Assembly (NCBI GenBank): GCA_049287005.1
Contig: JBAQEZ010000003.1
Location: 95,493-159,492, forward strand
Reading direction: 5' to 3'
DNA length: 64,000 nt
Source: Candidatus Moraniibacteriota bacterium
GTDB lineage: Bacteria > Patescibacteriota > Minisyncoccia > Moranbacterales > UBA1568
Shown here: positions 1 to 17,758 of the stretch, piece after piece
How positions within the stretch are numbered: position 1 is the first letter of the stretch
How the letters are laid out: every line of letters begins with the position of its first letter
Made by a program: the position numbers and the translations under genes
Notes under the pieces: generated by a model
The model's database searches: none
Told to the model about the DNA's origin: nothing
The model's input: the letters and a program-made list of their open reading frames with translations, nothing else

Positions 1-1078
1 CGTTCGATCGTTTTTGATCTTTTCGTTGTATTCCTTGAAGTGTCTTTTTAATTCCTCTAGCACTTTCGGATCATAAATTATGCTCATCAGAGGTAATGAA
101 ATTTGGTTTAATCGCGGCTCGATGTCGGGGTTGCTGAGTTCCGGTCGTAATTTGTGTTTACCCTTCTCTTTGAAACGGAACATGAGGAGTTTGTTCCTGA
201 GTAACAACGCCTCTCTTTTGAAATCATCGGAGATGTTGGTCGCAATATCCTCTCGCTTGGTTATCAGACTCATGTCCTCGGTTATCATTCGGCTTTCAAG
301 AGCAGGATCTTTGTAGAGTTCCCGTGTCGCAATCAACTTCGGACCGAATACATTGAATGATTTCGCATCATAGCTTTTTTTGTTGTTCGCCTCGCTCCTG
401 AGAACAGGAACATCCTTCATGAATCCCATATTGAGGATTTTCACGATGTCCGCTGTTGTCGTAGACATCTCGAAATCCGCCTCATCCAGCGTGAGCGTTC
501 CCCTGAAGTCTTCCAGTATCCTAAATATGGGTGATATTGTCGTTGCTCCAGCGGTAAAAATCGGCCGATAGCAGACCGAGCCTATAACCTGCAGAAACCG
601 TGATTTTCCTGTACCGTAATCACCGAGAGCACGCAGATACGGAAGCTCGTTGAAGTCGTCATGTATCCAGGTGAACATGGCGTAGTAGCTCGCCACATCC
701 TCGAAGAAAGGAGAAACAGCAAGATACTTCCGCATGAAAGCCTTTATCTGCTTGGCGAGGTCTTCGCGTGAAACATATTCGCCGACTGCCGATGGGAACA
801 ACACGACTCTGTTTCGAAGTAGGTTCTTATTCGGCGAATGAGGAATATATGTTATCCCGTTGTGCTCAAACATCTTCTCGATCTTTACTTCTCCGCTTGA
901 ACAGACTGCAAAGCTCGTCTCGGATTTTTCGGCATCGTAAAGCATTTCAACTAATGTCCCGTCGTTTAGAGCCAAAAAAGCAATCTCAGTCGGCTTCGGG
1001 GAGGTGCTTTTTTCTGGTGTGTCTTTTTTCTCCAATTCCTTTTTTAATGTTTCTAATTTGATGTGTTCTCTGGATTCC
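1..1078 (-). CDS. P-loop NTPase (Walker A GDYGTGKSRFLQ), putative replication ATPase/helicase of mobile element; partial, 3' end beyond window start
   Basis: Manual reverse-complement translation from ATG at 1078 gives an uninterrupted >350-aa frame down to position 1 (MESREHIKLETLKK...GDYGTGKSRFLQVIGSV...). It is absent from the ORF track because no stop lies inside the window. It starts 5 nt downstream of the zinc-finger gene stop. Confidence 0.6.
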
Positions 1079-1083
1079 ATAGG

Positions 1084-1698
1084 TTAAATGAGCATCTTTA
1101 CTGCCTCAGTGAACCTGACTCCGTAAAGATGCATGGTAAAAGTTATTACGTCGCCTCCCTCATGACATCCGAAGCAGTGAAATGTATTGCTATCGGTGAA
1201 GAAATAACATGAAGGAGTCTTTTCGTTGTGGAACGGGCAAAGGGCTACGAAGTTCTTTCCCGAAGCCTTCAGTTCAAGTTTGTCTCGAGCGAGATCGCAA
1301 ATCGGACGAACCCTGGCAGCCGCAATGAGTTCCTGCATGTCTATCCATCGTCGAGAATTACTTTCTTTTGGACTGCTTATAATTGCAAGCTGTCTTTTGA
1401 GACGAAAGAGATGATTTTCGGCGGTGATTAACTTCGGTATGCTTAGTTTTTCGATAAAGACCTCGTAGATGTCGTGATCTTTTTCGGGTATAGAGGCGAG
1501 TTGTTCCTGTATTTGCGCTTTCAGGCAGTCACACCTCTCTTGCTGCTCGTTGATCTTTTCCTGTAGCGTTTCCTTGTCTATTGGAAACACTTCGAGAAGC
1601 TCTCGATCGTTCAGTTTCGGCAATGATTTTCTCCACTCCCTCTCCCAATCAAGCGAAGCGAAAAAGAGTTCTTCATCATCCGAAAAGTCTTGTTTCAT
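1084..1698 (-). CDS. DnaG-type CHC2 zinc-finger domain protein (primase zinc finger located at the C-terminus)
   Basis: The C-terminal CPFHNEKTPSCYF...FHCFGCHEGGDVITF matches the canonical DnaG CHC2 zinc-finger consensus. The N-terminal 150 aa are charged/coiled-coil-like. Confidence 0.75.
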   Translation of the reverse strand: MKQDFSDDEELFFASLDWEREWRKSLPKLNDRELLEVFPIDKETLQEKINEQQERCDCLKAQIQEQLASIPEKDHDIYEVFIEKLSIPKLITAENHLFRLKRQLAIISSPKESNSRRWIDMQELIAAARVRPICDLARDKLELKASGKNFVALCPFHNEKTPSCYFFTDSNTFHCFGCHEGGDVITFTMHLYGVRFTEAVKMLI

Positions 1699-1828
1699 AT
1701 TTGAATGCGCATAATAGCTTACGCTTCATATAATGACTCTTCGATTAGTCGGATGAGTAAATAAAAAACCGCTTGTTAGAGCGGTTATTATCGTTCGACC
1801 AATATTTTATTCGATTAATATTCGAATG

Positions 1829-2716
1829 CTAGATAGTTTTATCGATATATAGTGATCGGTATTGTGATGGAATATTTTTTACCAACTCAACCTTTACAGG
1901 GATTTCGTTTTTTAATACGAGAATATTCTCCTGCTTCGATTTTTGTATCAAAGTAGGTTTTCTCAAGCCGTTGGTTTTCATGTATTCTTTTAGGCGACTT
2001 CTTTTGAATAATCCATTATTAATACAGTCCTGTAGATTTTTATCGAAATCAACTCTCGTTCCAGGTGCATTCACTATATAGGCGATAGAGTGGAGTTTTT
2101 TTATATAAGTATCCTCACCCTTGGCATTTTTGACTTCAAAGCGTATGGGTGATTCGTATCTTCCATCATACACAAGAAATATCACGTCGTTTGGTTGTAG
2201 CGTTTCAGCAACCAGACTTAAAGACTTCAATTCCTTCTCTTGGGTGCTTGTTTTGGTTTTAGGAATCATATCCATCCGAGCATCAACAAGGTGCTTTAAA
2301 AACAGAAAGTCAGCGGCTTCCGAATTGAATTTAATCGCGAGTTCGTAATCGCCGTAATATGTGACAGATTTCAGTATCCCAAAATATTCATGAAACATTC
2401 CAAGCGCATTCATAATATCTTCCCTACTGATACTCTCGGGGAAAGCATGAAATGGGAGGTTAAACCATAATCCATGCGGATACCGCCTAAGCTCATCTTG
2501 TCGCGACTTTGTATCGAGTGTGCTAATTTCTTTCCCGGCCCTGTCCGCAAGCACCTGCATGACCTTGAAAAGTTTTTCAATCTGACTATCTGGCAAACCT
2601 GAAAATAAATGCTGAATACTATCAGGTAATCGTGGATATTCCGGATTCTTCCATGAAGAAGATAGTGGCGCTATGGCTGGATCATTCTCTTTGGATTCGA
2701 CAGTGAGGGGTGTCAT
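1829..2716 (-). CDS. hypothetical protein (island 1)
   Basis: 295-aa ORF in an AT-rich island with no recognisable motifs; divergent from the 3000..3410 gene. Confidence 0.5.
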   Translation of the reverse strand: MTPLTVESKENDPAIAPLSSSWKNPEYPRLPDSIQHLFSGLPDSQIEKLFKVMQVLADRAGKEISTLDTKSRQDELRRYPHGLWFNLPFHAFPESISREDIMNALGMFHEYFGILKSVTYYGDYELAIKFNSEAADFLFLKHLVDARMDMIPKTKTSTQEKELKSLSLVAETLQPNDVIFLVYDGRYESPIRFEVKNAKGEDTYIKKLHSIAYIVNAPGTRVDFDKNLQDCINNGLFKRSRLKEYMKTNGLRKPTLIQKSKQENILVLKNEIPVKVELVKNIPSQYRSLYIDKTI

Positions 2717-2942
2717 TTGATTTTTTTAGTTGTTTATCTTGATATTCCCGCATATTGTACAGAAAAGCAAGTTGCCTTTTGCTTTATTTGAGTGTACTTT
2801 ATATATGAACCCACAATTGAAAAATACTGAGGTAAAGCCTTTGAGGTTTTGTCCTATCACGCTTTTTAGCGGGCGGCTCGGCGCACATGATAGGACACCT
2901 CGGTGCTTCTCGATTGTGGGTTCCGTCGGGTCGTCCACTCAA

Positions 2943-2965
2943 GTGAACATGTGAACGTAGTGAAC
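2943..2965. repeat. three tandem GTGAAC hexamers (iteron-like) in a divergent intergenic region
   Basis: caaGTGAACatGTGAACgtaGTGAACttc read directly; it lies next to a local GC-rich patch (2866-2940) inside the AT-rich island. Confidence 0.4.
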
Positions 2966-2999
2966 TTCTCGGCGACTTAAATTCATTTAGGTCGCTTTT

Positions 3000-3410
3000 A
3001 TGTTTGATAAAAAGGTAGACTACAATGCTTTAAACGCTCGACAGAAAGAGATTTACAACTTTCAAAAGGCTTCTGCTATTTTTGCTGAATTTGGATATAC
3101 GACCGTTAAGCTCTCTGATGATTGGATGGGGGCTGATTTTATCGCGATCAGTTTCGACGGATCGCAGTATCTCAGGGTTCAATTGAAGGGTCGTTTAACT
3201 TTCGATAAGAAATATCAAGGGAAGGGTATATACATTTGTTTCTATGATAAGAAAAGTGAGTGCTGGTACCTATATAATCATGATGAAATTTTGAAAAAAG
3301 TCATTAAATCAATTGAGAATAGTGATACATGGAATACAAACAAGCCGTATCACTATAAGTATCTCCAGTCAGAACACATGGAAATGTTAAGTTCGTGCAA
3401 AATTGGCTGA
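3000..3410 (+). CDS. hypothetical protein
   Basis: 136-aa ORF; a possible D...QxK nuclease-like motif (DFIAISFD...LRVQLKG) is weak. Confidence 0.45.
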   Translation: MFDKKVDYNALNARQKEIYNFQKASAIFAEFGYTTVKLSDDWMGADFIAISFDGSQYLRVQLKGRLTFDKKYQGKGIYICFYDKKSECWYLYNHDEILKKVIKSIENSDTWNTNKPYHYKYLQSEHMEMLSSCKIG

Positions 3411-3481
3411 AATTGTACTTTTTTGAGATTACGTCATATTTTGAGATTCGTTGGCATGTTCAAAATTTGTACACAGTAATT

Positions 3482-4066
3482 ATGAGAAAATATCTGAGGA
3501 GGTTGCAAAAGAAGATAAGGGGCATGGATACCGATGCTAAGTATGTCGCTGGGGCATACTTATTTGTTTTTATGTTCGTCGGTACAGCGGGTGTGCTCGC
3601 AGCATCTGGGTGGCATCCTGAGATAGCACCTTCGACACGAGTACGACCAGCGATGATGGAAAAAATTATACCTGCGGAAACAAAGTCGCTCTTCGATGAG
3701 AAGGAAGATGTTGTCGAGAAGCAATCCGTTTCAACTAAGAAGGCTATTCAGCCGATTGAACCGAGTAATGTTACGGATGTTACCTTGAAGACAGATCAGA
3801 AAAAAGCAGACCAAATAAAGACAGATGAATTGAAGAAGCAGCTTAAGATAGCCAAGGAAATTGAGAGGCAAGCGAAAGAGAGCTTCGATGAACTCAAGAA
3901 GACATTGAGCACACCGATTGCTCCTCCGCCAGCTATTAAGCCGTTCCCTGTTGCAAAAGCGCCAGAGCCAATAAAGGTGGATCTGCCGACAACCCATTAC
4001 ACGACAACTTGTTGGGATGATTTTCTTTTGGGCAAACAATGCAAGACAACGATGAGCGTTTATTGA
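3482..4066 (+). CDS. membrane-anchored charged/coiled-coil protein, hypothetical
   Basis: The ORF track frame 3395..4066 contains an N-terminal hydrophobic anchor (YVAGAYLFVFMFVGTAGVLAASG) followed by a K/E-rich region. The likely start is ATG 3482 or 3524 (the latter preceded by AAGGGG). Confidence 0.5.
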   Translation: MRKYLRRLQKKIRGMDTDAKYVAGAYLFVFMFVGTAGVLAASGWHPEIAPSTRVRPAMMEKIIPAETKSLFDEKEDVVEKQSVSTKKAIQPIEPSNVTDVTLKTDQKKADQIKTDELKKQLKIAKEIERQAKESFDELKKTLSTPIAPPPAIKPFPVAKAPEPIKVDLPTTHYTTTCWDDFLLGKQCKTTMSVY

Positions 4067-4120
4067 TGAAATGCTTTATTTAAAACAAAATTAGTGTTTA
4101 GACTCAATTTTCTTTACGCC

Positions 4121-4150
4121 AAACCCTCTCATCTAGAGGGTTTTTTGTTT
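4121..4150 (+). terminator. rho-independent terminator
   Basis: aaaCCCTCTcatcTAGAGGGttttttg: a GC hairpin plus T-run downstream of the 4066 stop. Confidence 0.6.
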
Positions 4151-4171
4151 CTACATAATAAAGTGCCTGCA

Positions 4172-4315
4172 ATAAAAGGCTTTATCTGAAACAAAGATAG
4201 GTGTTTGCTCATACTTTTTCAATTTAGATGTCTGCTTATTGTGTAGAGACAGATTTTCTAATCAATGTATCAAAAAAGGCTTTAAATAAAGCAAATCTAT
4301 GTGTTTGCTCAAATA
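4172..4315 (+). repeat. two short copies (A 4172-4215, B 4272-4315) of the island repeat family: hairpin aaaaGGCTTTAaaTAAAGC plus ATGTGTTTGCTCA
   Basis: Direct sequence comparison; copy B is followed by a sigma70-like promoter TTGCTC-16nt-TATAAT (4305-4332). Confidence 0.6.
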
Positions 4316-4409
4316 TTTTTAAAAAGTATAATTTCAAGTGATTGATCTTTTATGCTATTGCAAGAGCCTTTCTTTTATCCCTTGGACTCACAAAACACCC
4401 CCAGTCACA

Positions 4410-4557
4410 CAGAAAGATAAAAAACATAAAGATATATGGCCGGTATGTCGAAGTGTGCTCTAGGGATGAAATGGGCTTCGGAGCCATGTTAATAATAATG
4501 TATAAACAAAAAAAGGTTTTAAATAAAGCCAATTGATATGTTTGCTTAACTTTTTAG
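4410..4557 (+). repeat. long copy C (~150 bp) of the island repeat family
   Basis: About 75% identical to 5961-6105 (cagaaaNNaaaaNcataaagatatatNgccNgta...gggatgaaat...aaaGGTTTTAaaTAAAGCCaattgatatgtttgcttaa). Confidence 0.65.
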
Positions 4558-4590
4558 ATAAAAACAAGACCGCCTTTCAGCGGTCTTGTA
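4553..4590 (-). terminator. rho-independent terminator for the XRE-ImmA operon (minus strand)
   Basis: ACAAGACCGCctttcaGCGGTCTTGT is a 10-bp stem. On the minus strand it is followed by TTTTTATCT. Confidence 0.5.
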
Positions 4591-4899
4591 ATGGAAGTGT
4601 CTTGCTATTTTCGGAGCCGTTCACATTCCTTGCAGAGAGGTTTTCCGCCATTGCCCTGACGGAGATTCTCTCGCTCGATGTTGTTCCCGGTGTTACATTC
4701 CGTATTATCATGATGTACGGACTGTTTCACTGAGTGCCACGGTGATTTACGCATATGCGTGATGTGTGGGGTTGATTAGGTGGGCGTCAGCATGATACAT
4801 TTGATATGCAATATTTTTGTATTAGCTGGCTTTTAAGAGAACGACGCCGAGTTCTTTAAGAGAGAACTCCTCAAATTTAAACGCCCAAAGAAACCGCTA

Positions 4900-5448
4900 T
4901 TACTGGCGGCTTTTTTTGACCCTCAAATCTTTCTCTATACCAAGTTCGTTCAGACGATAGCCTAAAGCTTCTCCAGAAACTTTGAAAATGGAAGTCATTC
5001 GGACTTTCCGCAGATCAATGTCTAAATTGCTGAAAGCCTCCCACTTTTCTTTAAAGACTTCTCTGGGCATAAGGAATGCTGCTGCGAATCGGTTACAGAA
5101 CCGCTCCTCCTCGTTCATTGTGTATAGATTTCCATCGAAAAAGCCGAATGCAATCCCAGAGTTACGGATGACATGACCAACTTCATGACAGAGCGTGAAA
5201 TTCTGCCTTCGCGGATAGTCGGACTCTTTGATCCAAATTCTGTACTCGTCAGTAGCGGGATCGTAATATGTGAGACCAGAGATTTTCACAAAATGTTCTC
5301 CATCACCATGTCCAATCCAGATTTTTATCCCGAATTGATCTTCAACCCATTTGACCAATTCATGTATGGATGGCATAGGAGAGCCAATACTGTGAAAGAT
5401 GGCATTTGCTGTTCTTTCTGCCTCGATGTTTATTTTTGGGTAATTCAT
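4900..5448 (-). CDS. ImmA/IrrE-family zinc metallopeptidase
   Basis: HEVGHVI (HExxH) motif; 182 aa; immediately downstream of, and co-oriented with, the XRE repressor gene, the classic prophage/ICE immunity pair. Confidence 0.8.
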   Translation of the reverse strand: MNYPKINIEAERTANAIFHSIGSPMPSIHELVKWVEDQFGIKIWIGHGDGEHFVKISGLTYYDPATDEYRIWIKESDYPRRQNFTLCHEVGHVIRNSGIAFGFFDGNLYTMNEEERFCNRFAAAFLMPREVFKEKWEAFSNLDIDLRKVRMTSIFKVSGEALGYRLNELGIEKDLRVKKSRQ

Positions 5449-5452
5449 GATG

Positions 5453-5833
5453 TTACTTTTTGAGGTGATCGATGAGGTTCTCTATGATGCGGACAGCCTC
5501 CTTATTATCCATGCCATATTGCTGTCTGAGATAGACGCTTAAGGATGGAGTTGAGGGTTGGTCGCTTATAACCTTGAGAAGGCCTAAAATCTCTTTGACT
5601 TTGACGCTGAACCCGTCAGCTAGTTTGATAAGCGTATCAAGAGAGATATTTTTTTCATCAAACTCCCCATTTTCTATCTTTGAAATGAAACTCTTGGAGA
5701 GGGAGGCTCTCTCGGCTAATTCGTCCAGTGTGAAGCCCCTGTTTTTTCGGAGTTCTGATACGATTTCGCTCAATATCATATGTAGTTTATTTAAGTACAA
5801 TGAGAGTCTATCATAGGAAACTTTTTTGTGCAA
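5453..5833 (-). CDS. XRE-family helix-turn-helix transcriptional regulator
   Basis: HTH FTLDELAERASLSKSFISKIENGE; an alternative start at Met19 (5779) is more typical. Confidence 0.8.
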   Translation of the reverse strand: MHKKVSYDRLSLYLNKLHMILSEIVSELRKNRGFTLDELAERASLSKSFISKIENGEFDEKNISLDTLIKLADGFSVKVKEILGLLKVISDQPSTPSLSVYLRQQYGMDNKEAVRIIENLIDHLKK

Positions 5834-5960
5834 GGGGCGGTGAGCAAGGTACTCATTGAAGGAAAAAACTTCGGCTCTAACTGCACCCGCCCAAATATTT
5901 TTTTAGAGAGTGTTTTTGAATGATTTCATTCCTCGGATTCACAGAATACTCTCAGTTATA

Positions 5961-6105
5961 CAGAAATCCAAAAAGCATAAAGATATATAGCCAGTACGCC
6001 GAGGTGTCCTCTGGGGATGAAATATGGATTTGTAAGCTTGTCGTGTAATAACTCACAAACAAAAGGCTTCATTTGAAGCCAATTCATATGTTTGCTTAAT
6101 TATTT
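5961..6105 (+). repeat. long copy D of the island repeat family, in the divergent XRE / DUF4238-gene regulatory region
   Basis: See copy C. The hairpin here is GCTTCAttTGAAGC, versus GCTTTAaaTAAAGC in copies A and B: compensatory changes that preserve the palindrome. Confidence 0.65.
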
Positions 6106-6187
6106 TTCATTTGATTGCGGTCGGCGATTTTTTTGTGAATTGCGTATATACTGAAAGTGTTTCTTTTTCAGGCTTTCACCAAAAATT

Positions 6188-8659
6188 ATGTCCATAACAC
6201 ATCGTAATCATTATGTCCCTGAATGGTATCAAAAACGTTTTATATTACCAGGACAAAACAAACTACATTATTTGGATCTTTGCCCAGATAAAAAAATACT
6301 TGCTGATGGAAGAATTGTAACAATGAATTCTCATTTCTTCTGGGCGCCAAGTCAGTGCTTTTACAAAGAAGATTTGTATACGACATCCCTTTTTGGAAAT
6401 GAAAATGATGAAATCGAGAAATATCTTTTTGGGAGTATAGATATAACTGGAGCTAAGGCACTCCGTGCCATTGTAAGTAATGATATACAAAAACTCCACG
6501 ATTCGTTTAGTAGCTTTTTTGAATATTTAGATGCTCAGAAATTGAGAACTCCAAAGGGATTGGGTTGGATAAATGTTAATTATCCCAGGCTTACTCAGCT
6601 TCAATTGATGCTTGAGATGCAACAAATCAGACAACTGCACTGCACTATGTGGGTTGAGGCGGTGCGCGAAATAGTTTCTGCTGAAGATTCAGAGATTAAA
6701 TTTATAATTACTGATCATCCTGTTACTATTTATAATCCCGGATGCTCTCCAGGCACAAAATATTGCACATATCCAAATGAACCGTCTATAGCCCTAAAAG
6801 GAACACAGACCGTTTTCCCGCTGGATCTAAACCATTGTTTGATTTTAACCAATCTAGAATATGCGCAGGAGCCATTTTTAAAAGATTTACTTTCTAATAG
6901 GACAAATGCGCGGAATTTTGGACAAACAACTTCTCGTATTGATAATTGGATTAGAACCAGAAAGCTCAAGGATTTAGAGGTTAAAAAAATCAATTATATC
7001 TTAAAGTCACGAGCATCTAAGCATATCGCTGCTTCCAAGAAAGAGTGGCTTTATCCTGAAAAGGATATTAAAGAAACTTGGCAAAAAATAGGGCAAGTAC
7101 TTTTACCTCCAAAAAATGAGTTACACCATTTTGGAGGTGAGATGTACATGGGATACAAAGACGGAACAGTTCATTATCAGGATGCATTTGGGCGTACTAC
7201 TGGAGATACGTCGTATTTAAAAAAGCCAATCCCGAAAGGTAAAATTGGTAATAATGACCCGTGCGTTTGTGGAAGCGGAAGGAAATATAAAAAATGTTGT
7301 TTAGGAAAGAAGCCTGAAGATATGCCGGATACTACCGAGTACAGTATTCGAGAAAGAAATATTATATTCTCAAAAATTCTAGAAGACATACTGGGTCTAT
7401 CTAAAGGAAAAACCTGGGAAGATGTTCGAAAAGAATTAAGTGATGAGCAAGTAAAAAAAATCTACGAAGCTTTTCAGGGTTTATGGCCTAAAGATACAAA
7501 TATTATTAATTTATTGCCACACCCAGATGAAAGAATATCGAGAGCGCTGTATGCTGGTTTAATAGATCCTAGAACTGCAGCGAGAGATATAATCAGCTAT
7601 ACGCCCTATTTCGACGAAATTCTGGTCATAAATCCCTTTATGAATCCCGCCTATATAAGCCCGGAGTACAATCCGATAAATTTTCCGGGTCAATATAAAC
7701 AAGAGGTGTTAAAAAATGTTTTATTTTTCTTACAGCTGATGCCTTTTATAGAAATAGGCGCTGTGAATATAATTCCTGATCCCTGTTCTACTAATTATCG
7801 ATTACAAAGACAGATCTGGGATTTGGCGGAGTCACGTCATAAAAGATATAAATTAGAAGGATTTGACTTTGACCTCGAATCTGACGAGTCAATAAAAAAA
7901 ATATTTGAAGATGATTTTAAAAGGGGGATGACTGGTTTTTCTGACGAACATCTAATACAAAGCATAAAAAAAAGATTGCCAAAGCTACCTGATAGAGAAT
8001 TAGGAGAATTATTGGATTATATAAAAAAAGAGCGATTGAAAGACCCCTTGGCATTACTTCAGCCCATGGAAGACAATGAAAAAAGTGGACAGATGACTGC
8101 TACTCATGTAACCCCAAATCTTGAGCTTGGTTTCTTTATTGCGCAGCTTACGGGCTCGTTTATTTATACAGATAGTAAAGTGAGATGGCAAGAAATAACA
8201 AGATCAACTAAAGCCAGTGAGGATGAGAATAAAATGCCTTGGGAGTTTTTAGCAAAAACAATTAATGATATTGATTTCAATCTTGAAATTGACCCTTTAT
8301 TTAATTTTAAAATAAGAAAAACTGGGAAATTAGGATTAATAAGGGGTGCTGTAAGAAGATTGTGCACTACAATAAAAAATGAGCAAGATGCTCCTAAAAT
8401 TAAAATTTTAAACAAATCCTTATCTGACGAAATTATATTAGCGCACCAGAAGTCAGAAAAAGAGTTAGAAGCAATCAGGAAAGACAATGAGAAGCAGAAG
8501 GATGAAATTAGCTTTACATTTAAAAGTAAGATGACCTGTTTGATTTCTGTGGATGACTTTTTTTCATTAATACCAGTTCAAAGACTTGTTTTATCGTATG
8601 GGGCGAAACCTCAAAAAATAGTGCCAATAGCTGTATTCATTGAACATAATGATTGCTAG
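6188..8659 (+). CDS. large DUF4238-like protein with SEC-C metal-binding motif and ~450-aa C-terminal extension (candidate phage-defence/abortive-infection protein)
   Basis: N-terminus HRNHYVPEWYQKRFILPG resembles the DUF4238 start (HYVPxFYLxxF; family recall from memory). CVCGSGRKYKKCC matches the SEC-C motif exactly. 823 aa, inside an AT-rich island next to the ImmA/XRE pair. Confidence 0.55.
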   Translation: MSITHRNHYVPEWYQKRFILPGQNKLHYLDLCPDKKILADGRIVTMNSHFFWAPSQCFYKEDLYTTSLFGNENDEIEKYLFGSIDITGAKALRAIVSNDIQKLHDSFSSFFEYLDAQKLRTPKGLGWINVNYPRLTQLQLMLEMQQIRQLHCTMWVEAVREIVSAEDSEIKFIITDHPVTIYNPGCSPGTKYCTYPNEPSIALKGTQTVFPLDLNHCLILTNLEYAQEPFLKDLLSNRTNARNFGQTTSRIDNWIRTRKLKDLEVKKINYILKSRASKHIAASKKEWLYPEKDIKETWQKIGQVLLPPKNELHHFGGEMYMGYKDGTVHYQDAFGRTTGDTSYLKKPIPKGKIGNNDPCVCGSGRKYKKCCLGKKPEDMPDTTEYSIRERNIIFSKILEDILGLSKGKTWEDVRKELSDEQVKKIYEAFQGLWPKDTNIINLLPHPDERISRALYAGLIDPRTAARDIISYTPYFDEILVINPFMNPAYISPEYNPINFPGQYKQEVLKNVLFFLQLMPFIEIGAVNIIPDPCSTNYRLQRQIWDLAESRHKRYKLEGFDFDLESDESIKKIFEDDFKRGMTGFSDEHLIQSIKKRLPKLPDRELGELLDYIKKERLKDPLALLQPMEDNEKSGQMTATHVTPNLELGFFIAQLTGSFIYTDSKVRWQEITRSTKASEDENKMPWEFLAKTINDIDFNLEIDPLFNFKIRKTGKLGLIRGAVRRLCTTIKNEQDAPKIKILNKSLSDEIILAHQKSEKELEAIRKDNEKQKDEISFTFKSKMTCLISVDDFFSLIPVQRLVLSYGAKPQKIVPIAVFIEHNDC

Positions 8660-8749
8660 TTTGTAAAAATTCAGCTCTAACTGCATGATTATCCGTTCAA
8701 AAGAACTAATGGATTGTTAAAAAATATTAAACTGATATACACTTCATAA

Positions 8750-9463
8750 GTGAGATCCATAAAAGACGGGCTATACAATTACTTATCCCAACACAGCACG
8801 AGACGATTTAAAATACTCGTGGTATTTTTGTTTTTCTCCCTGGTTGGATTAATTACATTATTTGCTAATAAGGTATTTTCTGACCAAAATTTATACTATT
8901 ATACCTTTAGTACTATAGTCCAGGGGTTTCTAGCATTGGTTGCATTCCTTGGGGCAGTGGTCATTTATAAATTGCAGATTATTGAGTCTGATTTGGAAAA
9001 AATATCTAATAATCTATACTTCTTTATAAAAGTCTTCCCTCCATTCTCTGAATCAGTTGAAGGTGTTCATTCTTGGGCCGAAATTATGAATGAGGGGGGA
9101 AGAATCATAAATACACCCGAGAATAAAACAGGTATGTACTCTGATTCTATACAGAGAGCTGAGATTTATTGGAATAAACTGCGCAAATTGTCTAGTGATC
9201 GAGGAGATATTAGAACGAAAATGGTTGATTTTAGCTTATTCTCATTTCTGAATGTGGGGTTTTCTCTAATTTCAATGCCTATTACGAGACTATTTGTAGA
9301 GCAAAAGTTGTTTTATTTTGGAGAGGTTTTTATTATTATTGGTATTTTAATTAGCTGTTTTTCTCTTTTTCTAGCATTTGGGATTATCCGTGCCGTTTTG
9401 GGGTACTCTTTTTCAGCTAAGTTTGAGGCCGCCGCTTTTAAGCTAAACGCTAGAATCCATTAA
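8750..9463 (+). CDS. polytopic membrane protein, hypothetical (possible partner of DUF4238 protein)
   Basis: GTG start directly after an in-frame stop; at least 5 hydrophobic helices. Confidence 0.5.
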   Translation: MRSIKDGLYNYLSQHSTRRFKILVVFLFFSLVGLITLFANKVFSDQNLYYYTFSTIVQGFLALVAFLGAVVIYKLQIIESDLEKISNNLYFFIKVFPPFSESVEGVHSWAEIMNEGGRIINTPENKTGMYSDSIQRAEIYWNKLRKLSSDRGDIRTKMVDFSLFSFLNVGFSLISMPITRLFVEQKLFYFGEVFIIIGILISCFSLFLAFGIIRAVLGYSFSAKFEAAAFKLNARIH

Positions 9464-9679
9464 AGTTATTTATTTTCTAGTTGTTGCTCTTTTTATCTAA
9501 GTCACAACAGATAAGCACTTCAATAAGGAGTTGATTTAGTGATACTAGTCAGAAATTCAGTTCTAACCGTATTAACTACCCAGCTCAGATAAAAACAAGG
9601 CTCATCCGCCAGTCGGCAGAGAGCCTTATTTGTTATCCTCACAGTGGACGGTCAAACCGATGAATGTTATGGTAATGGT

Positions 9680-10291
9680 ATGAAAAATATCAAGGCGATC
9701 GTTTTTGATCTGAACGGGGTTTTTATCACGAGCCCCAAGTTGAGCCACAGATTTCATCAGGATTTCGGAGTTGATGAAGAGGCTTTTTTGCTCGCGCTGA
9801 AAGATGTCATGGCTCAAGTGCGGCAGCCTCATGCCGGCGGCGCCTATTCCTATTGGCAGCCTTATCTGGAACAGTGGGGCGTGCCATTCGATGAGGAATC
9901 ATTGCTTGATTATTGGTTTGCGGCGGAAAAGGAAAACCCTGCCATGATAAAGATCTCAGAAGCGTTGAAAGCGAAGGGCATTTCCCTATTCATTCTTTCC
10001 AATAATCTGAGAGAGCGATCCGGATATTACCAGGAGCGCTTTTCTTTTTTGGGCGCTCTCTTCCAGAAAATCTATTATTCATGGCAAACAGGATTCATCA
10101 AACCGGACAGACGGGCATACGAACTCATTTTGCGAGAAAATAATCTGCGGCCCGAAGAATGTATATACTTCGACGACTCGCAAACCAATATCGCCGTCGC
10201 TCAAGGCATCGGGATAGAGAGCTATCTCTTCCAGGGCAGCGACGATGTGCAAGAAAAACTGGCAGAACTTTTGACATGTCGGATCAGTTAA
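9680..10291 (+). CDS. HAD-superfamily hydrolase
   Basis: Motif I VFDLNGV (DxDx[TV]); ILSNN and FDDS motifs. The ORF frame opens at GTG 9644 and the first ATG is 9680. Confidence 0.7.
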   Translation: MKNIKAIVFDLNGVFITSPKLSHRFHQDFGVDEEAFLLALKDVMAQVRQPHAGGAYSYWQPYLEQWGVPFDEESLLDYWFAAEKENPAMIKISEALKAKGISLFILSNNLRERSGYYQERFSFLGALFQKIYYSWQTGFIKPDRRAYELILRENNLRPEECIYFDDSQTNIAVAQGIGIESYLFQGSDDVQEKLAELLTCRIS

Positions 10292-10397
10292 CCTCAGCAG
10301 CACCTCGTTTGGTATTAAAAAAAAGCCCACTGGATAGTGTTGCTACCAGTGGGATATCAGTTTATCCGTTCTTTCTGCCTTGCTTGTTAGCGATGAG

Positions 10398-10937
10398 TCA
10401 GCGGGAAGCGCTCGCCATCTGCCTGAGGTTCTCAGCGGCGCGCTCTGCTACCGTGAAGTCGGCATATTTCCGCGGCGTAATGATGCCATACATTCCGTCC
10501 CCGAGCATGACGTTAAGCGGAATGGCGAAAGCAGGAGGCCCATCGCCGCTTGGTTGCGCGGTGGCGTAGTGGGTCGCCGTGACGTACAGGATCCACTCTT
10601 CGGGGTTGCCGCGAGCGATGACCGCTTCTTGATTGGGCCAGTCCTTGGCCTGTCCGAGCGAGATCACCTGAAAGCGTTCCGGGTGATTCACCCAGATGTA
10701 AGCATCAGACGCAATCGGCACGAGGAAAAGAAACTGCGCCGCAGCGAATGTTTTCGCGACAATGCTCCCATATTCTTCTGTGAGGCCTGGCAAGCAAGCG
10801 GCCTCACCAAACCATTGCACGCAGATATAAGGCTTCTCGTTTTCCGTGAGCCGTTCCACACTGATGGTGGGAACCAGTACGGTGGGTTTTTTGGTTCTAC
10901 TCTCGGGCTGAAACGCCCGTGGGTCGATGCTTTGCAT
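10398..10937 (-). CDS. hypothetical protein
   Basis: 179-aa ORF convergent with the HAD gene. Preferred over the overlapping plus-strand ORF 10380..11207, whose translation is Arg-rich and low-complexity and which overlaps the VKOR gene. Confidence 0.5.
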   Translation of the reverse strand: MQSIDPRAFQPESRTKKPTVLVPTISVERLTENEKPYICVQWFGEAACLPGLTEEYGSIVAKTFAAAQFLFLVPIASDAYIWVNHPERFQVISLGQAKDWPNQEAVIARGNPEEWILYVTATHYATAQPSGDGPPAFAIPLNVMLGDGMYGIITPRKYADFTVAERAAENLRQMASASR

Positions 10938-15181: not shown

Positions 15182-15253
15182 GTGCCCCTAGAGGGAATCG
15201 AACCCCCATCTCTCCCTTAGGACGGGATAGCTCTATCCATTGAGCTATAGAGG
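15182..15253 (-). tRNA. tRNA-Arg (anticodon CCT; assignment tentative)
   Basis: Reverse complement GCCTCTATAGCTCAATGGATAGAGC...TCCC-GTCCTAA-GGGA...GGGTTCGATTCCC...TAGGGGCA folds as a cloverleaf. Confidence 0.65.
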
Positions 15254-15405
15254 CAAACTTGCTGCTTTTCACTTGTGTATATTGCCATTCTCTCTGGCGG
15301 ACATCCGGCTCTGCTTATCCGGAACAGAGAGAACCTTTCACTCTCATGGATAGTAACAAGGAATATAGAACGCCGATATCCTTCTGTACCGCAAGTATTT
15401 GAGTG

Positions 15406-15478
15406 TGGACCGTGCCGGATTCGAACCGGCGACCTCCTCCATGCCATGGAGGCGCGCTACCAACTGTGCCAACGGCCC
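15406..15478 (-). tRNA. tRNA-Ala (anticodon GGC)
   Basis: Reverse complement GGGCCGTTGGCACAGTTGGTAGCGCG-CCTCC-ATGGCAT-GGAGG...GGTTCGAATCC...ACGGTCCA; the G3:U70 Ala identity pair is present. Confidence 0.75.
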
Positions 15479-15620
15479 ATGTAAATCACGATGCCTCTTA
15501 GAGGAGCTGCCATTCGTGCGCATCGCTTATGCTATACTTTCCTATCATACTGGTTTTTCTTGATTCGTCAATGCGTTGCCTCTTCACAAACACCCTATTT
15601 CCGCTATAATGAAGTGATTT

Positions 15621-17507
15621 ATGTTATTCTCTCCTATGATACGAAAGAGCGAACATCTCCCTGCCGGTCTCTCTTGGCATCGCATCTTTTTTGTTTTTTT
15701 TCTTTTCTCCCTTCCTTTTTCCATTCGCAAGGTTCTCGTTGTATTTTCTGCCGATGGCACTTTCAATGAGTATTTAGACGTATCCTTGTATCTTTCGGAT
15801 ATTTTGCTCCTCTGTACGGTATTTTCATACATATTATGCAATAAAGTATCAATATTGTCAATAGTATACTGGAGAAAGATGTTCCACGTGGAACATTTAT
15901 TCCTCCCTTTTTTTATTCCAGCCCTCTTGATCGTATGGTCCGGGCTCTCTATTTTTTGGTCGGCAAGTCCGCTACTCGCTGTGTATTCTTTCTCTCATCT
16001 CTTCGCAGGGTATCTTTTATACGTCTATATTTTTCTTTCTTGTGTTCCACGTGGAACAATCGCACGACATGAACCGTGTTCCACGTGGAACAAGTCTCAA
16101 ATTGGTACGGTGGAAATGTTCCACGTGGAACAATCGCACGACATGAACCGTGTTCCACGTGGAACATTCTGGTCTTGGATAGCCCAGTCCACAAAGAAAT
16201 GTTCCACGTGGAACACATATCAAGTGATTATGCTGGTATTTATAATCTCAGGTTTTTTTCAGTCCCTCATTGCTATTCTGCAATTCATAGAGCAAAAATC
16301 CCTTGGATTAAGCATTTTAGAGGAAAGTATCCTTTCACCGGCAAGTCCTGGGGTAGCCAAAGTAGTGATTGGTAGTGAGATATTCATAAGATCATACGGG
16401 CTGTTTCCTCACCCGAACATTCTTGGAGGTTTTTTGGCCGTATCTTTGCTGATGACCATAGTCTATCCATTGCTATTTACTTCCCAATTGTTCCACGTGG
16501 AACAATCAAACAGCATGAAGAATGTTCCACGTGGAACATTCTTGTCTTTTATTTCTCGTTGTATGGGTAAATGTTCCACGTGGAACACCTCACGGTCTCA
16601 TCTTGCAAAAATGTTCCACGTGGAACAATCGAGGTCTCTCTTTCTGTATAGAATGATTATTTTCTTTCAATCAGCCGCTCTTTTGTTCTCATTTTCCAAG
16701 ACGGCGATTGCTGGATTTATTATTGGGCTTGTTTTAGCCATTTTTGGTATGAAAAAAATGTTCCACGTGGAACAATCAAACAGCATGAAGAATGTTCCAC
16801 GTGGAACATTAATCGACTTAGAACCAGATACTGTGCAGAAATGTTCCACGTGGAACAAATTAAGTGCTCGTTTCAATAAAATGGGTATATTGTTCCACGT
16901 GGAACATTGGATCATTATGTTTGGCATTGTACTCACCGTTCTTGTGTTTGCCTCAGTGAATTTAAAACTTTTTATTGTTCAGCCCATTACGGAACGGCTC
17001 TTCTATATGCGGTCACTTCGGGTGTTGTGGCAAGAATATGCTTTTGAGGGCTTGGGAATAGGGCAATTTGTGTATAGGATACAGGATCTTTTCAGTGAAC
17101 CGCTCTTGAGCTGGCAGTTTCAGCCGATCCACAACGTATTTTTGCTTGTTTTCAGTGAAATCGGAGTCATTGGCCTTGGGCTGTTTCTCTGGTTTTACAT
17201 ATATGTTTTTCTAAAAAATAACCAAAATGTTCCACGTGGAACAAATCAACAAAAGGGCAGCCAATGTTCCACGTGGAACATTGGGAATAAAATTAGAGGA
17301 ATGTTCCACGTGGAACAATTTTCCGGCGTTCAGTTTCGGGGAGAATCAAAAGGCGGTAGGAAAGTTATCGCTGCCTATCTGCTCAGGTCTCTCTTGGTAG
17401 TAGTAGTCATTGCTATGCTCTTTGATCATTATTTCTGGGATATACAGCAGGGAGAACTCGTACTATGGATCATACTGGCTCTAGCCGTTTCTGAAAGCGG
17501 TTATTGA
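15621..17507 (+). CDS. O-antigen ligase (WaaL/Wzy_C)-like polytopic membrane protein carrying 17 in-frame palindromic-repeat insertions
   Basis: The 628-aa frame stays open. It has multiple TM helices and a conserved Wzy_C-like motif near the C-terminus (QPIHNVFLLVFSEIGVIGLGLF). The inserted peptides MFHVEQ / VPRGT / CSTWN are the three reading frames of the palindrome. Confidence 0.55.
   Translation: MLFSPMIRKSEHLPAGLSWHRIFFVFFLFSLPFSIRKVLVVFSADGTFNEYLDVSLYLSDILLLCTVFSYILCNKVSILSIVYWRKMFHVEHLFLPFFIPALLIVWSGLSIFWSASPLLAVYSFSHLFAGYLLYVYIFLSCVPRGTIARHEPCSTWNKSQIGTVEMFHVEQSHDMNRVPRGTFWSWIAQSTKKCSTWNTYQVIMLVFIISGFFQSLIAILQFIEQKSLGLSILEESILSPASPGVAKVVIGSEIFIRSYGLFPHPNILGGFLAVSLLMTIVYPLLFTSQLFHVEQSNSMKNVPRGTFLSFISRCMGKCSTWNTSRSHLAKMFHVEQSRSLFLYRMIIFFQSAALLFSFSKTAIAGFIIGLVLAIFGMKKMFHVEQSNSMKNVPRGTLIDLEPDTVQKCSTWNKLSARFNKMGILFHVEHWIIMFGIVLTVLVFASVNLKLFIVQPITERLFYMRSLRVLWQEYAFEGLGIGQFVYRIQDLFSEPLLSWQFQPIHNVFLLVFSEIGVIGLGLFLWFYIYVFLKNNQNVPRGTNQQKGSQCSTWNIGNKIRGMFHVEQFSGVQFRGESKGGRKVIAAYLLRSLLVVVVIAMLFDHYFWDIQQGELVLWIILALAVSESGY
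15880..17317. repeat. array of 17 perfect copies of the 16-bp palindrome TGTTCCACGTGGAACA (CACGTG core)
   Basis: Copies start at 15880, 16043, 16077, 16117, 16151, 16200, 16489, 16523, 16572, 16612, 16759, 16793, 16842, 16891, 17228, 17265, 17302. Four of them form composite units palindrome-18nt-palindrome, with related spacers ATCGCACGACATGAACCG (x2) and ATCAAACAGCATGAAGAA (x2). Confidence 0.95.
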
Positions 17508-17758
17508 CAAATAGTTAAAATATGATATAATATTCATCATCCTTTTTCAGTGTACACACACCTTCGCCGGAATGTCGTCTTGCTCTGTTGTCTGGCTGAG
17601 GGGCAATGTTCTGTTTCCTTGCGCATCGCTTCTGTTATTATCATCAGAACGGATGGAGCCAGAGCGCCCATGCGTTAGTGGAGGTATTTTTTTACGCAGG
17701 TAGTGCAGGAAAAAAGAATTGTGTTATAATTGAGCTATCTAAAAAACAAACACCGGAT

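What the first reader, a model, noticed from the sequence alone, without database searches (positions are those of the whole stretch)
5840..9580. 16-bp direct repeat TTCRGYTCTAACYGYA delimits the DUF4238 and membrane-protein cassettes; the last copy sits at the island/backbone GC boundary
The three copies all have an A-rich lead-in:
- 5866-5886: aaaaacTTCGGCTCTAACTGCA
- 8665-8685: aaaaatTTCAGCTCTAACTGCA
- 9548-9568: agaaatTTCAGTTCTAACCGTA

They bracket two consecutive gene cassettes: repeat-D plus the DUF4238 gene, then the membrane-protein gene. The third copy coincides with the switch from ~35% GC island to ~55% GC backbone.

This is the geometry expected for recombination sites or cassette junctions, or for the end of the island itself.
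Basis: seen in the sequence. Interest (0 to 1): 0.55.

Follow-up and report, generated by a model that had tools for sequence, protein, structure and literature searches.

The report
Integration scars of a tRNA-Gly island
The three 16-bp repeats are most likely leftover attachment-site scars of a serine-recombinase mobile element inserted next to a tRNA-Gly gene in a Moranbacteria (CPR) genome: they mark the island's end and the seams between separately acquired cargo genes, which is a familiar kind of island architecture found here in a little-studied phylum.

Summary
The repeat is real. TTCRGYTCTAACYGYA occurs three times in 64 kb (5870-5885, 8670-8685, 9556-9571) against 0 expected.

- The island continues about 2.1 kb left of the window. 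It ends at a large serine recombinase (LSR) gene whose stop codon overlaps the 3' end of tRNA-Gly(GCC).
- Four related Moranbacteria loci carry the same motif at the junction with host DNA. In three of them the far end of a homologous LSR island is in view; the fourth, L016, has no LSR. The flank beyond the motif is conserved and a terminator follows.
- In all three window copies, a decayed copy of the tRNA-Gly 3' end (TACCCGCTCCAA) follows the motif.
- In L016 a DUF4238 homologue sits alone beside tRNA-Gly. Its single site has the left flank of copy 2 and the right flank of copy 3, so the membrane-protein module is present or absent exactly between copies 2 and 3.

Best reading: each copy is an attR-type scar, made of the element-side arm plus a displaced tRNA end, left by serial integration at tRNA-Gly. 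Older elements have been reduced to cargo genes.

The exact crossover point is not proven, because no empty site or circular form was found.

This is a new member of a known kind (tRNA-targeting islands, tycheposon-like or SCC-like accretion). Interest is moderate.

The parts
5864..5894 (+). Copy 1: A-rich lead-in, the 16-mer TTCGGCTCTAACTGCA (5870-5885), then an overlapping tRNA-Gly 3'-end-like remnant CACCCGCCCAA (5884-5894). It is the seam between the XRE/ImmA module and the repeat-D + DUF4238 module.
   Evidence: The remnant lies within edit distance 2 of TACCCGCTCCAA, empirical P=0.0017. The spacer between motif and remnant is about 7 nt shorter than in the other copies.
8660..8700 (+). 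Copy 2: lead-in tttgtaaaaa, the 16-mer TTCAGCTCTAACTGCA (8670-8685), a spacer, then the remnant TATCCGTTCAA (8690-8700). It is the seam between the DUF4238 module and the membrane-protein module.
   Evidence: The left flank is homologous to the real island/host junction of L016, 92% over 26 nt. It ranks second in the window with a PWM built from foreign attR sites. The remnant has edit distance 3, P=0.022.
9550..9589 (+). Copy 3, the island/host junction (attR): lead-in cagaaa, the 16-mer TTCAGTTCTAACCGTA (9556-9571), the spacer TTAAC, then the displaced tRNA-Gly 3'-end remnant TACCCAGCTCAGA (9577-9589).
   Evidence: It ranks first with the PWM, at 51.7 bits. Its right flank resembles the attR flanks of L003, L007, L013 and L016 at p=0.0005 each. 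The remnant has P=0.019. The GC step falls here.
9597..9637 (.). Hairpin AAGGCTC...GAGCCTT with T-runs on both strands, directly after copy 3. It is probably the original terminator of the tRNA operon, displaced by the island.
   Evidence: Read from the sequence. An equivalent hairpin plus T-run follows the site in L003, L003_int, L007, L013 and L016. The simple terminator scan did not list it.
6188..8659 (+). Cargo gene of the module between copies 1 and 2: an 823-aa DUF4238 + SEC-C protein.
   Evidence: Pfam DUF4238 at 3.3e-13 and SEC-C at 7.6e-08. Homologues occur across many phyla. An 83%-identical homologue sits alone between tRNA-Gly and an attR site in L016.
8750..9463 (+). Cargo gene of the module between copies 2 and 3: a 237-aa predicted membrane protein. 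An alternative start at 8828 gives 211 aa.
   Evidence: ORF list. No Pfam, PADLOC or PHROG hit. A homologue (82.6% nt identity over window 8712-9474) occurs in L020 without DUF4238. It is absent from L016.
4900..5833 (-). ImmA-type metallopeptidase (4900-5448) and XRE repressor (5453-5779/5833). This is the last gene pair before copy 1.
   Evidence: Pfam Peptidase_M78 and HTH_3. Best PADLOC hits are capP at 4e-18 and capH at 5e-13.
5889..6112 (+). Repeat-D copy 2 plus unit D1d. This non-coding stretch starts right after copy 1 and is duplicated at 4307-4555 (75-79% identity). In the duplicate, a D1 unit occupies the position that copy 1 holds here.
   Evidence: The D1d end (from 6068) is homologous to the stretch that directly follows the tRNA-Gly terminator in L016.
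4257..4275 (+). Possible fourth, degenerate scar: TTCTAATCAATGTATCAA. Compare L016 TTCTAATC-GTATCAA. It sits at the left edge of D1b/repeat-D copy 1. Low confidence.
   Evidence: Seen in the TCTAAY listing. TCTAAY hexamers alone are common, about 7 expected per strand. No tRNA-like remnant is directly adjacent.
1..4066 (.). Conserved backbone of the element inside the window: the 3' part of a 467-aa gene (1-1080, -), a CHC2 primase zinc-finger protein (1084-1698, -), a 295-aa protein (1829-2716, -), and 136-aa and 223-aa ORFs. The LSR gene and tRNA-Gly(GCC) lie left of the window, at window-equivalent -2161..-554 and -2224..-2150.
   Evidence: L001 is identical to the window over 11,698 nt. 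The same gene order occurs in L003, L005 and L014 and, partly, in L007, L013 and L015.

Best explanation
The window covers the right-hand 9.6 kb of an integrated element of about 11.7 kb, in a Candidatus Moraniibacteriota genome. The element's large serine recombinase (LSR) gene abuts tRNA-Gly(GCC), 2.15 kb left of the window start.

The 16-mer with its A-rich lead-in is the element-side arm (P arm) of the recombinase's attachment site. After integration at the 3' end of tRNA-Gly, this arm stays at the far end of the element (attR). It is followed there by the displaced original 3' end of the tRNA and the tRNA operon's terminator.

- Copy 3 is the outermost attR, at the island/host junction.
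- Copies 2 and 1 are attR scars of elements that arrived later. Each arrival inserted into the tRNA-Gly gene that the previous element had regenerated, and pushed the earlier arrivals outwards.
- The earlier arrivals have since lost their recombinase and replication genes. They survive as cargo-only modules: the membrane protein is the oldest, then DUF4238, then probably the XRE/ImmA pair.

**Shown:**
- the repeat itself;
- its presence at the junction with host DNA in four related loci, three of them the far ends of homologous LSR islands;
- the tRNA-like remnant beside every copy;
- presence or absence of the membrane module, with breakpoints at copies 2 and 3.

**Inferred:**
- that the LSR is the enzyme;
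- that the crossover lies in the tRNA acceptor end;
- the order of arrival.
For: 1. **The island's other end.** L001 is identical to the window and extends it. It shows LSR (Resolvase + Recombinase domains), then tRNA-Gly(GCC), then four more tRNAs, then rplS. The LSR matches phage integrase family phrog_95 at 7e-63.

2. **A conserved LSR/tRNA arrangement.** Seven loci carrying LSR homologues of 62-80% identity were fetched, and in all seven the LSR gene abuts tRNA-Gly(GCC). In the four LSR genes aligned (L001, L003, L005, L007), the LSR stop codon is the reverse complement of the tRNA's ...TTACCCGCTC end, and protein length is fixed at 534-535 aa. This fits a tRNA end carried by the element.

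3. **The same site at the junction with host DNA.** Where that junction is in view (L003, L007, L013 and the LSR-less L016), it carries AGTTCTAA(C/T)CG(T/C)AT plus about 9 nt, a tRNA-like end and a hairpin terminator. Unrelated host genes follow. The arm is better conserved than what follows it.

4. **Independent PWM.** A matrix built from those foreign sites ranks copy 3 first (51.7 bits) and copy 2 second (8.0 bits) in the window. The background mean is -67.6 with sd 14.8.

5. **tRNA remnants.** The 30 nt after copies 1, 2 and 3 each contain a near-copy of the genome's own tRNA-Gly 3' 12-mer (edit distance 2, 3 and 3; P=0.0017, 0.022 and 0.019). The same holds for L003_int, L007 and L016. 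It does not hold for the two motif copies inside the LSR gene, where P is about 0.55.

6. **A separable module.** L016 reads tRNA-Met, tRNA-Gly, terminator, DUF4238 homologue, one site, host gene. That site combines copy 2's left flank with a right flank like copy 3's.

7. **A second example.** The internal copy in L003 is followed by TACCCAGCTCCA and a terminator, and it brackets an HTH_17 + Fic module.

8. **Precedent.** Serial integration at tRNAs that pushes older elements outwards and leaves partial tRNAs and degenerate elements has been described for tycheposons (10.1101/2020.12.28.424599).
Against: - No empty tRNA-Gly site and no circular attP junction was found, so the crossover position is inferred. 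Searches returned nothing or only LSR-filled sites. Searches found nothing in viral contigs.
- The tRNA-like remnants are short (11-13 nt) and need one or two indels. The attR sites of different loci are homologous, so they are not independent observations.
- Over 32 nt, the right flanks of copies 1 and 2 do not align significantly with the flanks of true attR sites. Copy 1 is not among the top 12 PWM hits.
- The 12-13-mer (G)TCAGTTCTAACC also occurs twice inside the LSR gene, about 70 and 274 nt from the tRNA end. It is conserved at the DNA level in four LSR genes. The model does not explain this, and the finding fits the rival crossover position.
- No LSR pseudogene fragments lie beside copies 1 or 2. 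Decay of the older elements must therefore have been complete.
- No dyad symmetry above shuffled controls was found, although only centres around TTCTAAC were tested.
Confidence: 0.6

Rival explanations
1. The enzyme and the island are the same, but the crossover lies inside the shared core GTTCTAAC. attB would then be an intergenic site about 55 nt downstream of tRNA-Gly and its terminator. attL would be the copy inside the last LSR codons (RLELT), so the final 22 codons of the integrated LSR gene would be host DNA. The internal copies 1 and 2 would be core-to-core junctions, where further modules were inserted or where the element captured neighbouring DNA by aberrant excision.
For: 8-12 nt of exact identity link the LSR-proximal copy to the distal copy in each island: TCAGTTCTAACC in L001, AGTTCTAACC in L003, CAGTTCTAACC in L007 and GTTCTAAC in L013. 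The segment between this copy and the tRNA is strongly conserved at the DNA level, and its terminator hairpin differs in sequence between the loci. In the predicted circular form the LSR frame would still close quickly, as ...RLELNF* (reading).
Against: - It does not explain why a tRNA-Gly 3'-end-like sequence follows every distal and internal copy.
- It does not explain why LSR length is fixed at 534-535 aa across loci, including L005, where the genes beyond tRNA-Gly differ.
- Under this model the element-side arm would be only the poorly conserved A-rich lead-in, while the 'host' arm CGTATTAAC... would be conserved across hosts. That is the opposite of what is expected.
- Pattern scans for core plus tRNA-side flank returned only LSR-filled sites.
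- L016's left junction is not at this core.
Confidence: 0.2
2. The copies are live cassette sites. Recombinase-less modules such as DUF4238, the membrane protein and Fic would each keep one functional site. The resident LSR would excise them as circles and re-insert them in trans, like an integron array built on a serine recombinase.
For: - The modules are single genes or small gene sets bounded by directly repeated sites.
- Copies 1 and 2 are 15/16 identical and share a variant core (GCTCTAACTGCA) that differs from copy 3.
- L016 carries the DUF4238 module without a recombinase.
- The DUF4238 and membrane genes occur separately elsewhere.
Against: - There is no direct evidence of circles or of the same module in two different arrays.
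- In L020 the membrane gene has no recognisable motif at its flanks, and homology stops 26 nt and 81 nt inside the copy 2 to copy 3 interval.
- L016 can equally be explained by deletion or by an independent old integration.
- To my knowledge, LSRs without a directionality factor do not normally recombine attR-type sites with each other.
Confidence: 0.12
3. The motif is a transcriptional signal, for example an operator of the CapH-like XRE repressor, a promoter element or a terminator element, and it is repeated in front of or behind the island's genes.
For: Copy 1 lies in the divergent XRE/DUF4238 intergenic region, where a repressor operator would be expected. XRE/ImmA resemble CapH/CapP regulators.
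Against: - The same site marks island/host junctions in islands with unrelated cargo and no XRE gene nearby.
- It is not palindromic.
- It shows no hairpin or attC-like folding; z-scores range from -0.64 to +1.1.
- Promoter-like hits in the region are at chance level.
Confidence: 0.03

Closest known systems
Genomic islands integrated at tRNA genes, flanked by a regenerated tRNA and a displaced tRNA 3' fragment. Tycheposons of Prochlorococcus are the closest described example (10.1101/2020.12.28.424599).
   Same: - Site-specific integration at a tRNA.
- Small integration and replication modules (recombinase, primase) plus variable cargo.
- Repeated integration at the same tRNA, which pushes older elements outwards.
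- Degenerate elements and partial tRNAs left inside the island.
- A minority of tycheposon-like elements also use a large serine recombinase.
   Different: - The host is a CPR bacterium (Moraniibacteriota).
- The recombinase is an LSR in every locus examined, whereas 910 of the 937 Prochlorococcus elements carry a tyrosine recombinase.
- The identifiable cargo is mostly defence-like: restriction-modification, Fic, SAVED-HNH, SMODS/SLATT, XRE/ImmA and DUF4238.
- The tRNA remnant is only about 12 nt.
SCC / SCCmec composite islands of staphylococci (Ccr large serine recombinases, integration site sequence (ISS) direct repeats).
   Same: An LSR-driven island sits at one fixed chromosomal site and is flanked by direct repeats that contain the recombinase target. 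From my own knowledge, composite islands made of several SCC and pseudo-SCC units are separated by repeated ISS copies, and some of those units lack ccr genes.
   Different: - The target is the end of a tRNA gene, not rlmH (orfX).
- There is a single LSR gene with no sequence relationship to ccr beyond the family level; the nearest phage LSRs are at most 28% identical.
- Whether the internal copies are still substrates is unknown.
Integron cassette arrays (attI/attC, IntI tyrosine recombinase).
   Same: One-gene modules in the same orientation, each followed by a short repeated site.
   Different: - No IntI-type tyrosine recombinase is present.
- The sites are not imperfect palindromes and do not fold.
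- No R''/L''-L'/R' organisation is present.
- The sites carry a tRNA-end remnant instead.

Membership tests
tRNA-integrated genomic island with attL/attR | A site-specific recombinase gene at one end, next to the target tRNA | tested here: met
   A 535-aa LSR (Pfam Resolvase + Recombinase; phrog_95 at 7e-63) has its stop codon overlapping tRNA-Gly(GCC) in L001, which is identical to the window.
tRNA-integrated genomic island with attL/attR | A displaced partial copy of the tRNA 3' end at the far end of the island, in direct orientation | tested here: met
   TACCCAGCTCAGA lies 5 nt after copy 3. Analogous remnants occur at L003_int, L007 and L016 (P 0.001-0.024), with weaker ones at L003_attR and L013. 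The remnants are short and carry indels.
tRNA-integrated genomic island with attL/attR | An empty-site allele or circular junction that fixes the boundaries | tested here: inconclusive
   Scans of genome, metagenome and viral contigs gave no empty site and no attP. Those collections have few close relatives.
tRNA-integrated genomic island with attL/attR | Compositional and gene-content break at the boundary | tested here: met
   G+C rises from 0.32-0.37 to 0.45-0.56 at about 9500-10500. Cargo differs between islands, while host genes follow the site.
Tandem (accreted) island array, tycheposon-like or SCC-like | Internal copies of the att repeat that separate units | tested here: met
   Copies 1 and 2 in the window. 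L003 has an internal copy with a full flank and terminator.
Tandem (accreted) island array, tycheposon-like or SCC-like | Units between repeats vary independently among genomes | tested here: met
   L016 has DUF4238 but lacks the membrane module, with the junction at the site. L020 has the membrane gene alone. This rests on only two comparator loci.
Tandem (accreted) island array, tycheposon-like or SCC-like | Remnants of recombinase genes in the older units | tested here: not met
   tblastn and blastn of LSR genes against window 1-9700 found nothing better than E of about 0.8.
Large serine recombinase att site | Imperfect dyad symmetry of half-sites around a central dinucleotide | tested here: inconclusive
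   For centres around TTCTAAC in reconstructed attB and attP, no symmetry exceeded shuffled controls. Centres at the tRNA end were inspected only by eye.
Large serine recombinase att site | Recombination catalysed by the LSR at this site | not testable with these tools
   This needs an in vitro or in vivo attP x attB assay.
Integron attC site | IntI tyrosine recombinase, and a foldable imperfect palindrome (R''-L''...L'-R') of 57-141 nt | tested here: not met
   No tyrosine recombinase is present in the island. ssDNA folding z-scores on both strands run from -0.64 to +1.12.

The most novel reading that the evidence does not exclude
The internal copies are not dead scars but working sites. A resident large serine recombinase would then mobilise recombinase-less, single-gene defence modules in trans. 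Each module would carry the ~20-nt arm plus a tRNA-end mimic. The result would be an integron-like, exchangeable cassette array anchored on a tRNA gene in CPR bacteria. The two additional DNA-conserved copies of the arm sequence inside the recombinase gene would act as extra binding or regulatory sites.
Probability: 0.15. Interest if true: 0.7.

Novelty: new member of a known kind. Interest (0 to 1): 0.42.

Why it matters
Mobile elements of CPR/Patescibacteria are poorly charted, and two full-text literature searches returned no description of this family.

- **A recurrent element family.** The finding points to LSR + primase elements that always sit at tRNA-Gly(GCC) in Moranbacteria and ferry variable, mostly defence-like cargo. 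A short sequence signature (arm + tRNA-end remnant) lets island ends and internal seams be called from sequence alone.
- **A practical handle.** The signature can be used to delimit defence cargo, such as the uncharacterised 823-aa DUF4238-SEC-C protein, in genomes that cannot be cultured.
- **A candidate tool.** This is a possibly tRNA-specific LSR/att pair for genome engineering.
- **No conceptual change.** It extends the known accretion logic of tRNA islands to a new phylum and recombinase class, without overturning anything.

Tried and rejected
- **Integron attC reading.** Rejected. There is no IntI, and ssDNA folding is no better than shuffles.
- **tRNA gene or 5' half at copy 3.** Read on the minus strand, the flank parses loosely as acceptor, U8, then a D-arm with GG. 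ARAGORN on a reconstructed attB found only tRNA-Gly. Rfam at E<=10 gave no tRNA hit in 3900-9700. The acceptor-like part is better explained as the tRNA-Gly 3' strand.
- **LSR pseudogene remnants next to copies 1 and 2.** None found.
- **Longer tRNA-Gly fragments at the distal ends, by blastn-short.** Only 9-mers were found, which are not significant on their own. The edit-distance test was needed.
- **Dyad symmetry around TTCTAAC.** Not above shuffles.
- **Empty site or attP searches:**
  - TCAGTTCTAACCGTATTAAC in metagenome contigs gave 0 hits.
  - Core plus tRNA-side flank in genome and metagenome contigs gave only LSR-filled sites.
  - An LSR protein scan and an attP pattern scan of viral contigs both gave nothing.
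- **Exact look-up of the HAD protein, to find strain variants.** Not on record.
- **Significance of the right flanks of copies 1 and 2 against true attR flanks over 32 nt.** Not significant.
- **Operator or promoter reading.** Rejected because of the motif's position at junctions in unrelated islands.
- **Origin of the D1/repeat-D family.** It could be a relic of the element's tRNA-proximal end or a more decayed scar. I could not resolve this.

Full report
**Observation**

The degenerate 16-mer TTCRGYTCTAACYGYA matches exactly three times in the 64-kb window, all on the + strand: 5870-5885, 8670-8685 and 9556-9571. Dinucleotide shuffles give 0.00 expected matches. Allowing three mismatches adds no further site.
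- The lead-ins written for copies 2 and 3 contain one 't' too many.
- The placement is as described. Copy 1 lies between the divergent XRE gene and the DUF4238 gene. Copy 2 lies 10 nt after the DUF4238 stop. Copy 3 lies after the membrane-protein ORF and before a HAD hydrolase gene.
- G+C is 0.32-0.37 across 6-9.5 kb and 0.45-0.56 beyond.

**Where the island really ends**

An exact-protein look-up of the primase-like gene returned contig JBAQNY010000035.1 (L001). It is identical to the window over 11,698 nt and extends it 8.9 kb to the left.
- The island continues through a 467-aa gene to a 535-aa large serine recombinase (LSR). The LSR has Resolvase + Recombinase domains, matches phrog_95 at 7e-63, and is at most 28% identical to phage LSRs.
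- The LSR stop codon overlaps the 3' end of tRNA-Gly(GCC). That tRNA is the last gene of a Leu-Val-Phe-Met-Gly tRNA cluster next to rplS.
- The host is annotated Candidatus Moraniibacteriota.

**Related islands**

LSR homologues of 62-88% identity are common in Patescibacteria metagenomes, and almost all are 534-535 aa long. I fetched seven loci.
- In all seven the LSR gene abuts tRNA-Gly(GCC). An alignment of four LSR gene ends (L001, L003, L005, L007) shows the same stop-codon/tRNA overlap in each.
- A conserved LSR-adjacent gene order (a 448-523-aa gene and a CHC2 primase zinc-finger gene) is seen in L003, L005, L014 and L015; L007 and L013 lack the primase module. In every island it is followed by variable cargo: EcoRV-type restriction-modification plus XRE/ImmA plus Fic, SAVED-HNH plus a LexA-like gene plus a methylase, SMODS/SLATT, an AAA_21 protein, and methylases.
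- No capsid or terminase genes are present. These are integrative, probably replicative, cargo elements and not prophages.

**The motif at island ends elsewhere**

The junction with host DNA is in view in L003, L007, L013 and L016. Each carries the same site, written here in window orientation:
- (C/T)AGTTCTAA(C/T)CG(T/C)AT
- then about 5 nt
- then a sequence resembling TACCCGCTC
- then a hairpin with T-runs, followed by unrelated host genes

.

A weight matrix built only from the five foreign sites ranks window copy 3 first (51.7 bits) and copy 2 second (8.0 bits) among 127,908 positions. The background mean is -67.6 with sd 14.8. Copy 1 is not in the top twelve. Copy 3's right flank aligns with each foreign flank at p=0.0005.

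**What the site is**

Every attR-type copy is followed by a decayed copy of the genome's own tRNA-Gly 3' terminus, TACCCGCTCCAA.

| Site | Remnant | Position | Edit distance | Empirical P |
|---|---|---|---|---|
| Copy 1 | CACCCGCCCAA | 5884-5894 | 2 | 0.0017 |
| Copy 2 | TATCCGTTCAA | 8690-8700 | 3 | 0.022 |
| Copy 3 | TACCCAGCTCAGA | 9577-9589 | 3 | 0.019 |
| L003_int, L007, L016 | analogous | - | 2-3 | 0.001-0.024 |
| L003 terminal site, L013 | analogous | - | 4 | 0.11-0.16 |
| The two motif copies inside the LSR gene | none | - | 5 | about 0.55 |

A displaced tRNA 3' fragment at the far end, with the regenerated tRNA next to the recombinase, is the classic signature of integration into a tRNA gene. 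On this reading:
- The LSR's last codons (...W/L-S-G-stop) are the reverse complement of the tRNA end and belong to the element. This explains the fixed protein length.
- That arm is better conserved among islands than the remnant that follows it. This is expected if the arm is bound by the recombinase and the remnant is free to decay.
- The hairpin after each site would be the original, displaced terminator of the tRNA operon. For internal copies it would be the terminator supplied by the older element.

**The internal copies as seams**

*Copy 2.* It is orthologous to a real island/host junction.
- In L016 (a 4.4-kb contig) the order is tRNA-Met, tRNA-Gly, terminator, an 83%-identical DUF4238 gene, then tagTTTGTAAAAATTTAGTTCTAATCGTATCAATTACCCGC, a terminator and a host gene.
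- The 26 nt up to and into the site match copy 2's left flank at 92%. The right flank matches copy 3's.
- The membrane-protein module (8686-9555) is thus present in the window and absent in L016, with breakpoints at copies 2 and 3.
- The membrane gene also occurs elsewhere (L020) without DUF4238.

*L003.* It provides a second example. An internal copy, followed by TACCCAGCTCCA and a terminator, brackets an HTH_17 + Fic module together with the terminal copy.

*Copies 1 and 2.* They are 15/16 identical and share the variant GCTCTAACTGCA.
- The non-coding repeat-D that begins right after copy 1 is duplicated at 4307-4555. There, a D1 unit takes the place of copy 1.
- This suggests that the XRE/ImmA segment is a further unit of the same type.
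- A weak fourth site lies at 4257-4275.

**Mechanism proposed**

Successive LSR elements integrated into tRNA-Gly. Each regenerated the tRNA and displaced the previous 3' end. Older elements were pushed outwards and lost their recombinase and replication genes, and their cargo remained.

This is the accretion logic described for tycheposons. It is analogous to SCC composite islands delimited by ISS direct repeats (and my own knowledge).

*Shown:*
- the repeats;
- their junction position in related loci;
- the remnants;
- one presence/absence polymorphism.

*Inferred:*
- the enzyme;
- the crossover at the tRNA acceptor end;
- the order of arrival.

**Rivals and open points**

The main rival places the crossover inside GTTCTAAC.
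- In its favour, (G)TCAGTTCTAACC also lies in the last LSR codons (RLELT), about 70 nt from the tRNA, and shares 8-12 nt with each island's distal copy.
- A second copy lies 204 nt further into the gene (WLELT). Both are invariant at synonymous positions in four LSR genes.
- I rate this rival lower for four reasons. It does not explain the tRNA remnants. It does not explain the constant LSR length. It predicts the reverse pattern of arm conservation. And scans for core plus tRNA-side flank found only LSR-filled sites.
- The intragenic copies remain unexplained.

Other open points:
- No empty site or attP was found.
- No dyad symmetry was detected.
- No LSR remnants flank copies 1 and 2.
- The integron attC reading is rejected.
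- The tRNA-gene reading is rejected.
- The operator or promoter reading is rejected on the motif's position at junctions in L003, L007, L013 and L016.

**Verdict**

The architecture is a known kind (tRNA-island accretion) in a new setting: CPR bacteria, a serine recombinase, and defence-like cargo. Interest is moderate.

The most novel reading still open is that the internal sites are live, which would make this a serine-recombinase cassette array. I put that at about 15%.

Noticed in passing
L001 13574-13589 and 13778-13793 (inside the LSR gene; window-equivalent -1890..-1875 and -2094..-2079). The same positions occur in L003, L005, L007 and L014.: The 13-mer GTCAGTTCTAACC, which matches the attR arm core, occurs twice in the 3' part of the LSR gene, 204 nt apart. 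It encodes WLELT and RLELT. It is invariant at synonymous sites in the four LSR genes aligned, whose proteins are 70-80% identical to the window's (GAATGGTTAGAACTGAC is fully conserved). These could be extra recombinase-binding or regulatory sites.
   Followed up: partly
window 4159-4562 and 5889-6112: A non-coding repeat family. Four D1 units of 67 nt (at 4159, 4259, 4496 and 6046) each consist of a hairpin plus ...ATGTTTGCTYAA. Repeat-D, of about 170-250 nt, is present twice at 75-79% identity. In L016 the D1d-like sequence directly follows the tRNA-Gly terminator, so D1 may be a relic of the tRNA-proximal end of decayed elements. Rfam gives only a spurious histone stem-loop hit.
   Followed up: partly
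window 4900-5833 and 6188-8659: The XRE/ImmA pair scores best against the PADLOC CapH/CapP models (5e-13 and 4e-18). These model the regulators of CBASS and other defence operons. The pair is divergent from the 823-aa DUF4238 + SEC-C gene, whose family is spread across many phyla at 45-60% identity. It is a plausible but untested single-gene defence system.
   Followed up: partly
L003, L005/L006, L007, L013, L014 (islands upstream of the LSR gene): Cargo of the related islands is dominated by defence-type genes. These include EcoRV-like endonuclease plus C5 methylase, Fic with HTH_17, SAVED-HNH, SMODS + AGS_C + SLATT_4 (CBASS-like), LexA-like S24 repressors, N6/N4 methylases and a 900-aa AAA_21 protein. 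The tRNA-Gly locus looks like a defence-island hotspot in Moranbacteria.
   Followed up: no
L020 about 480-900: Upstream of the membrane-protein homologue lies an array of at least five units of about 40 nt. Each unit holds a duplicated 8-9-mer followed by TTTTT, for example aacctaacataacctaaccttttt and cctcactaaacctcacttttt. The array is iteron-like and of unknown meaning.
   Followed up: no
L003 2250-2415: Two tRNA T-arm-like fragments in opposite orientations lie between the Fic gene and the internal att copy. One reads ...CCGCCCGTTCGACTACCGTTCACACCA. They suggest further old tRNA-associated recombination events.
   Followed up: no
window 15500-18000: A second low-GC stretch (0.39-0.43) lies next to tRNA-Arg(CCT) and tRNA-Ala(GGC) at 15182-15478. 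It may be another tRNA-associated insertion.
   Followed up: no
L005 11787-12047, L014 10-267, L015 11888-12154: Small GIY-YIG nuclease genes recur close to the tRNA-Gly/island borders in three loci.
   Followed up: no
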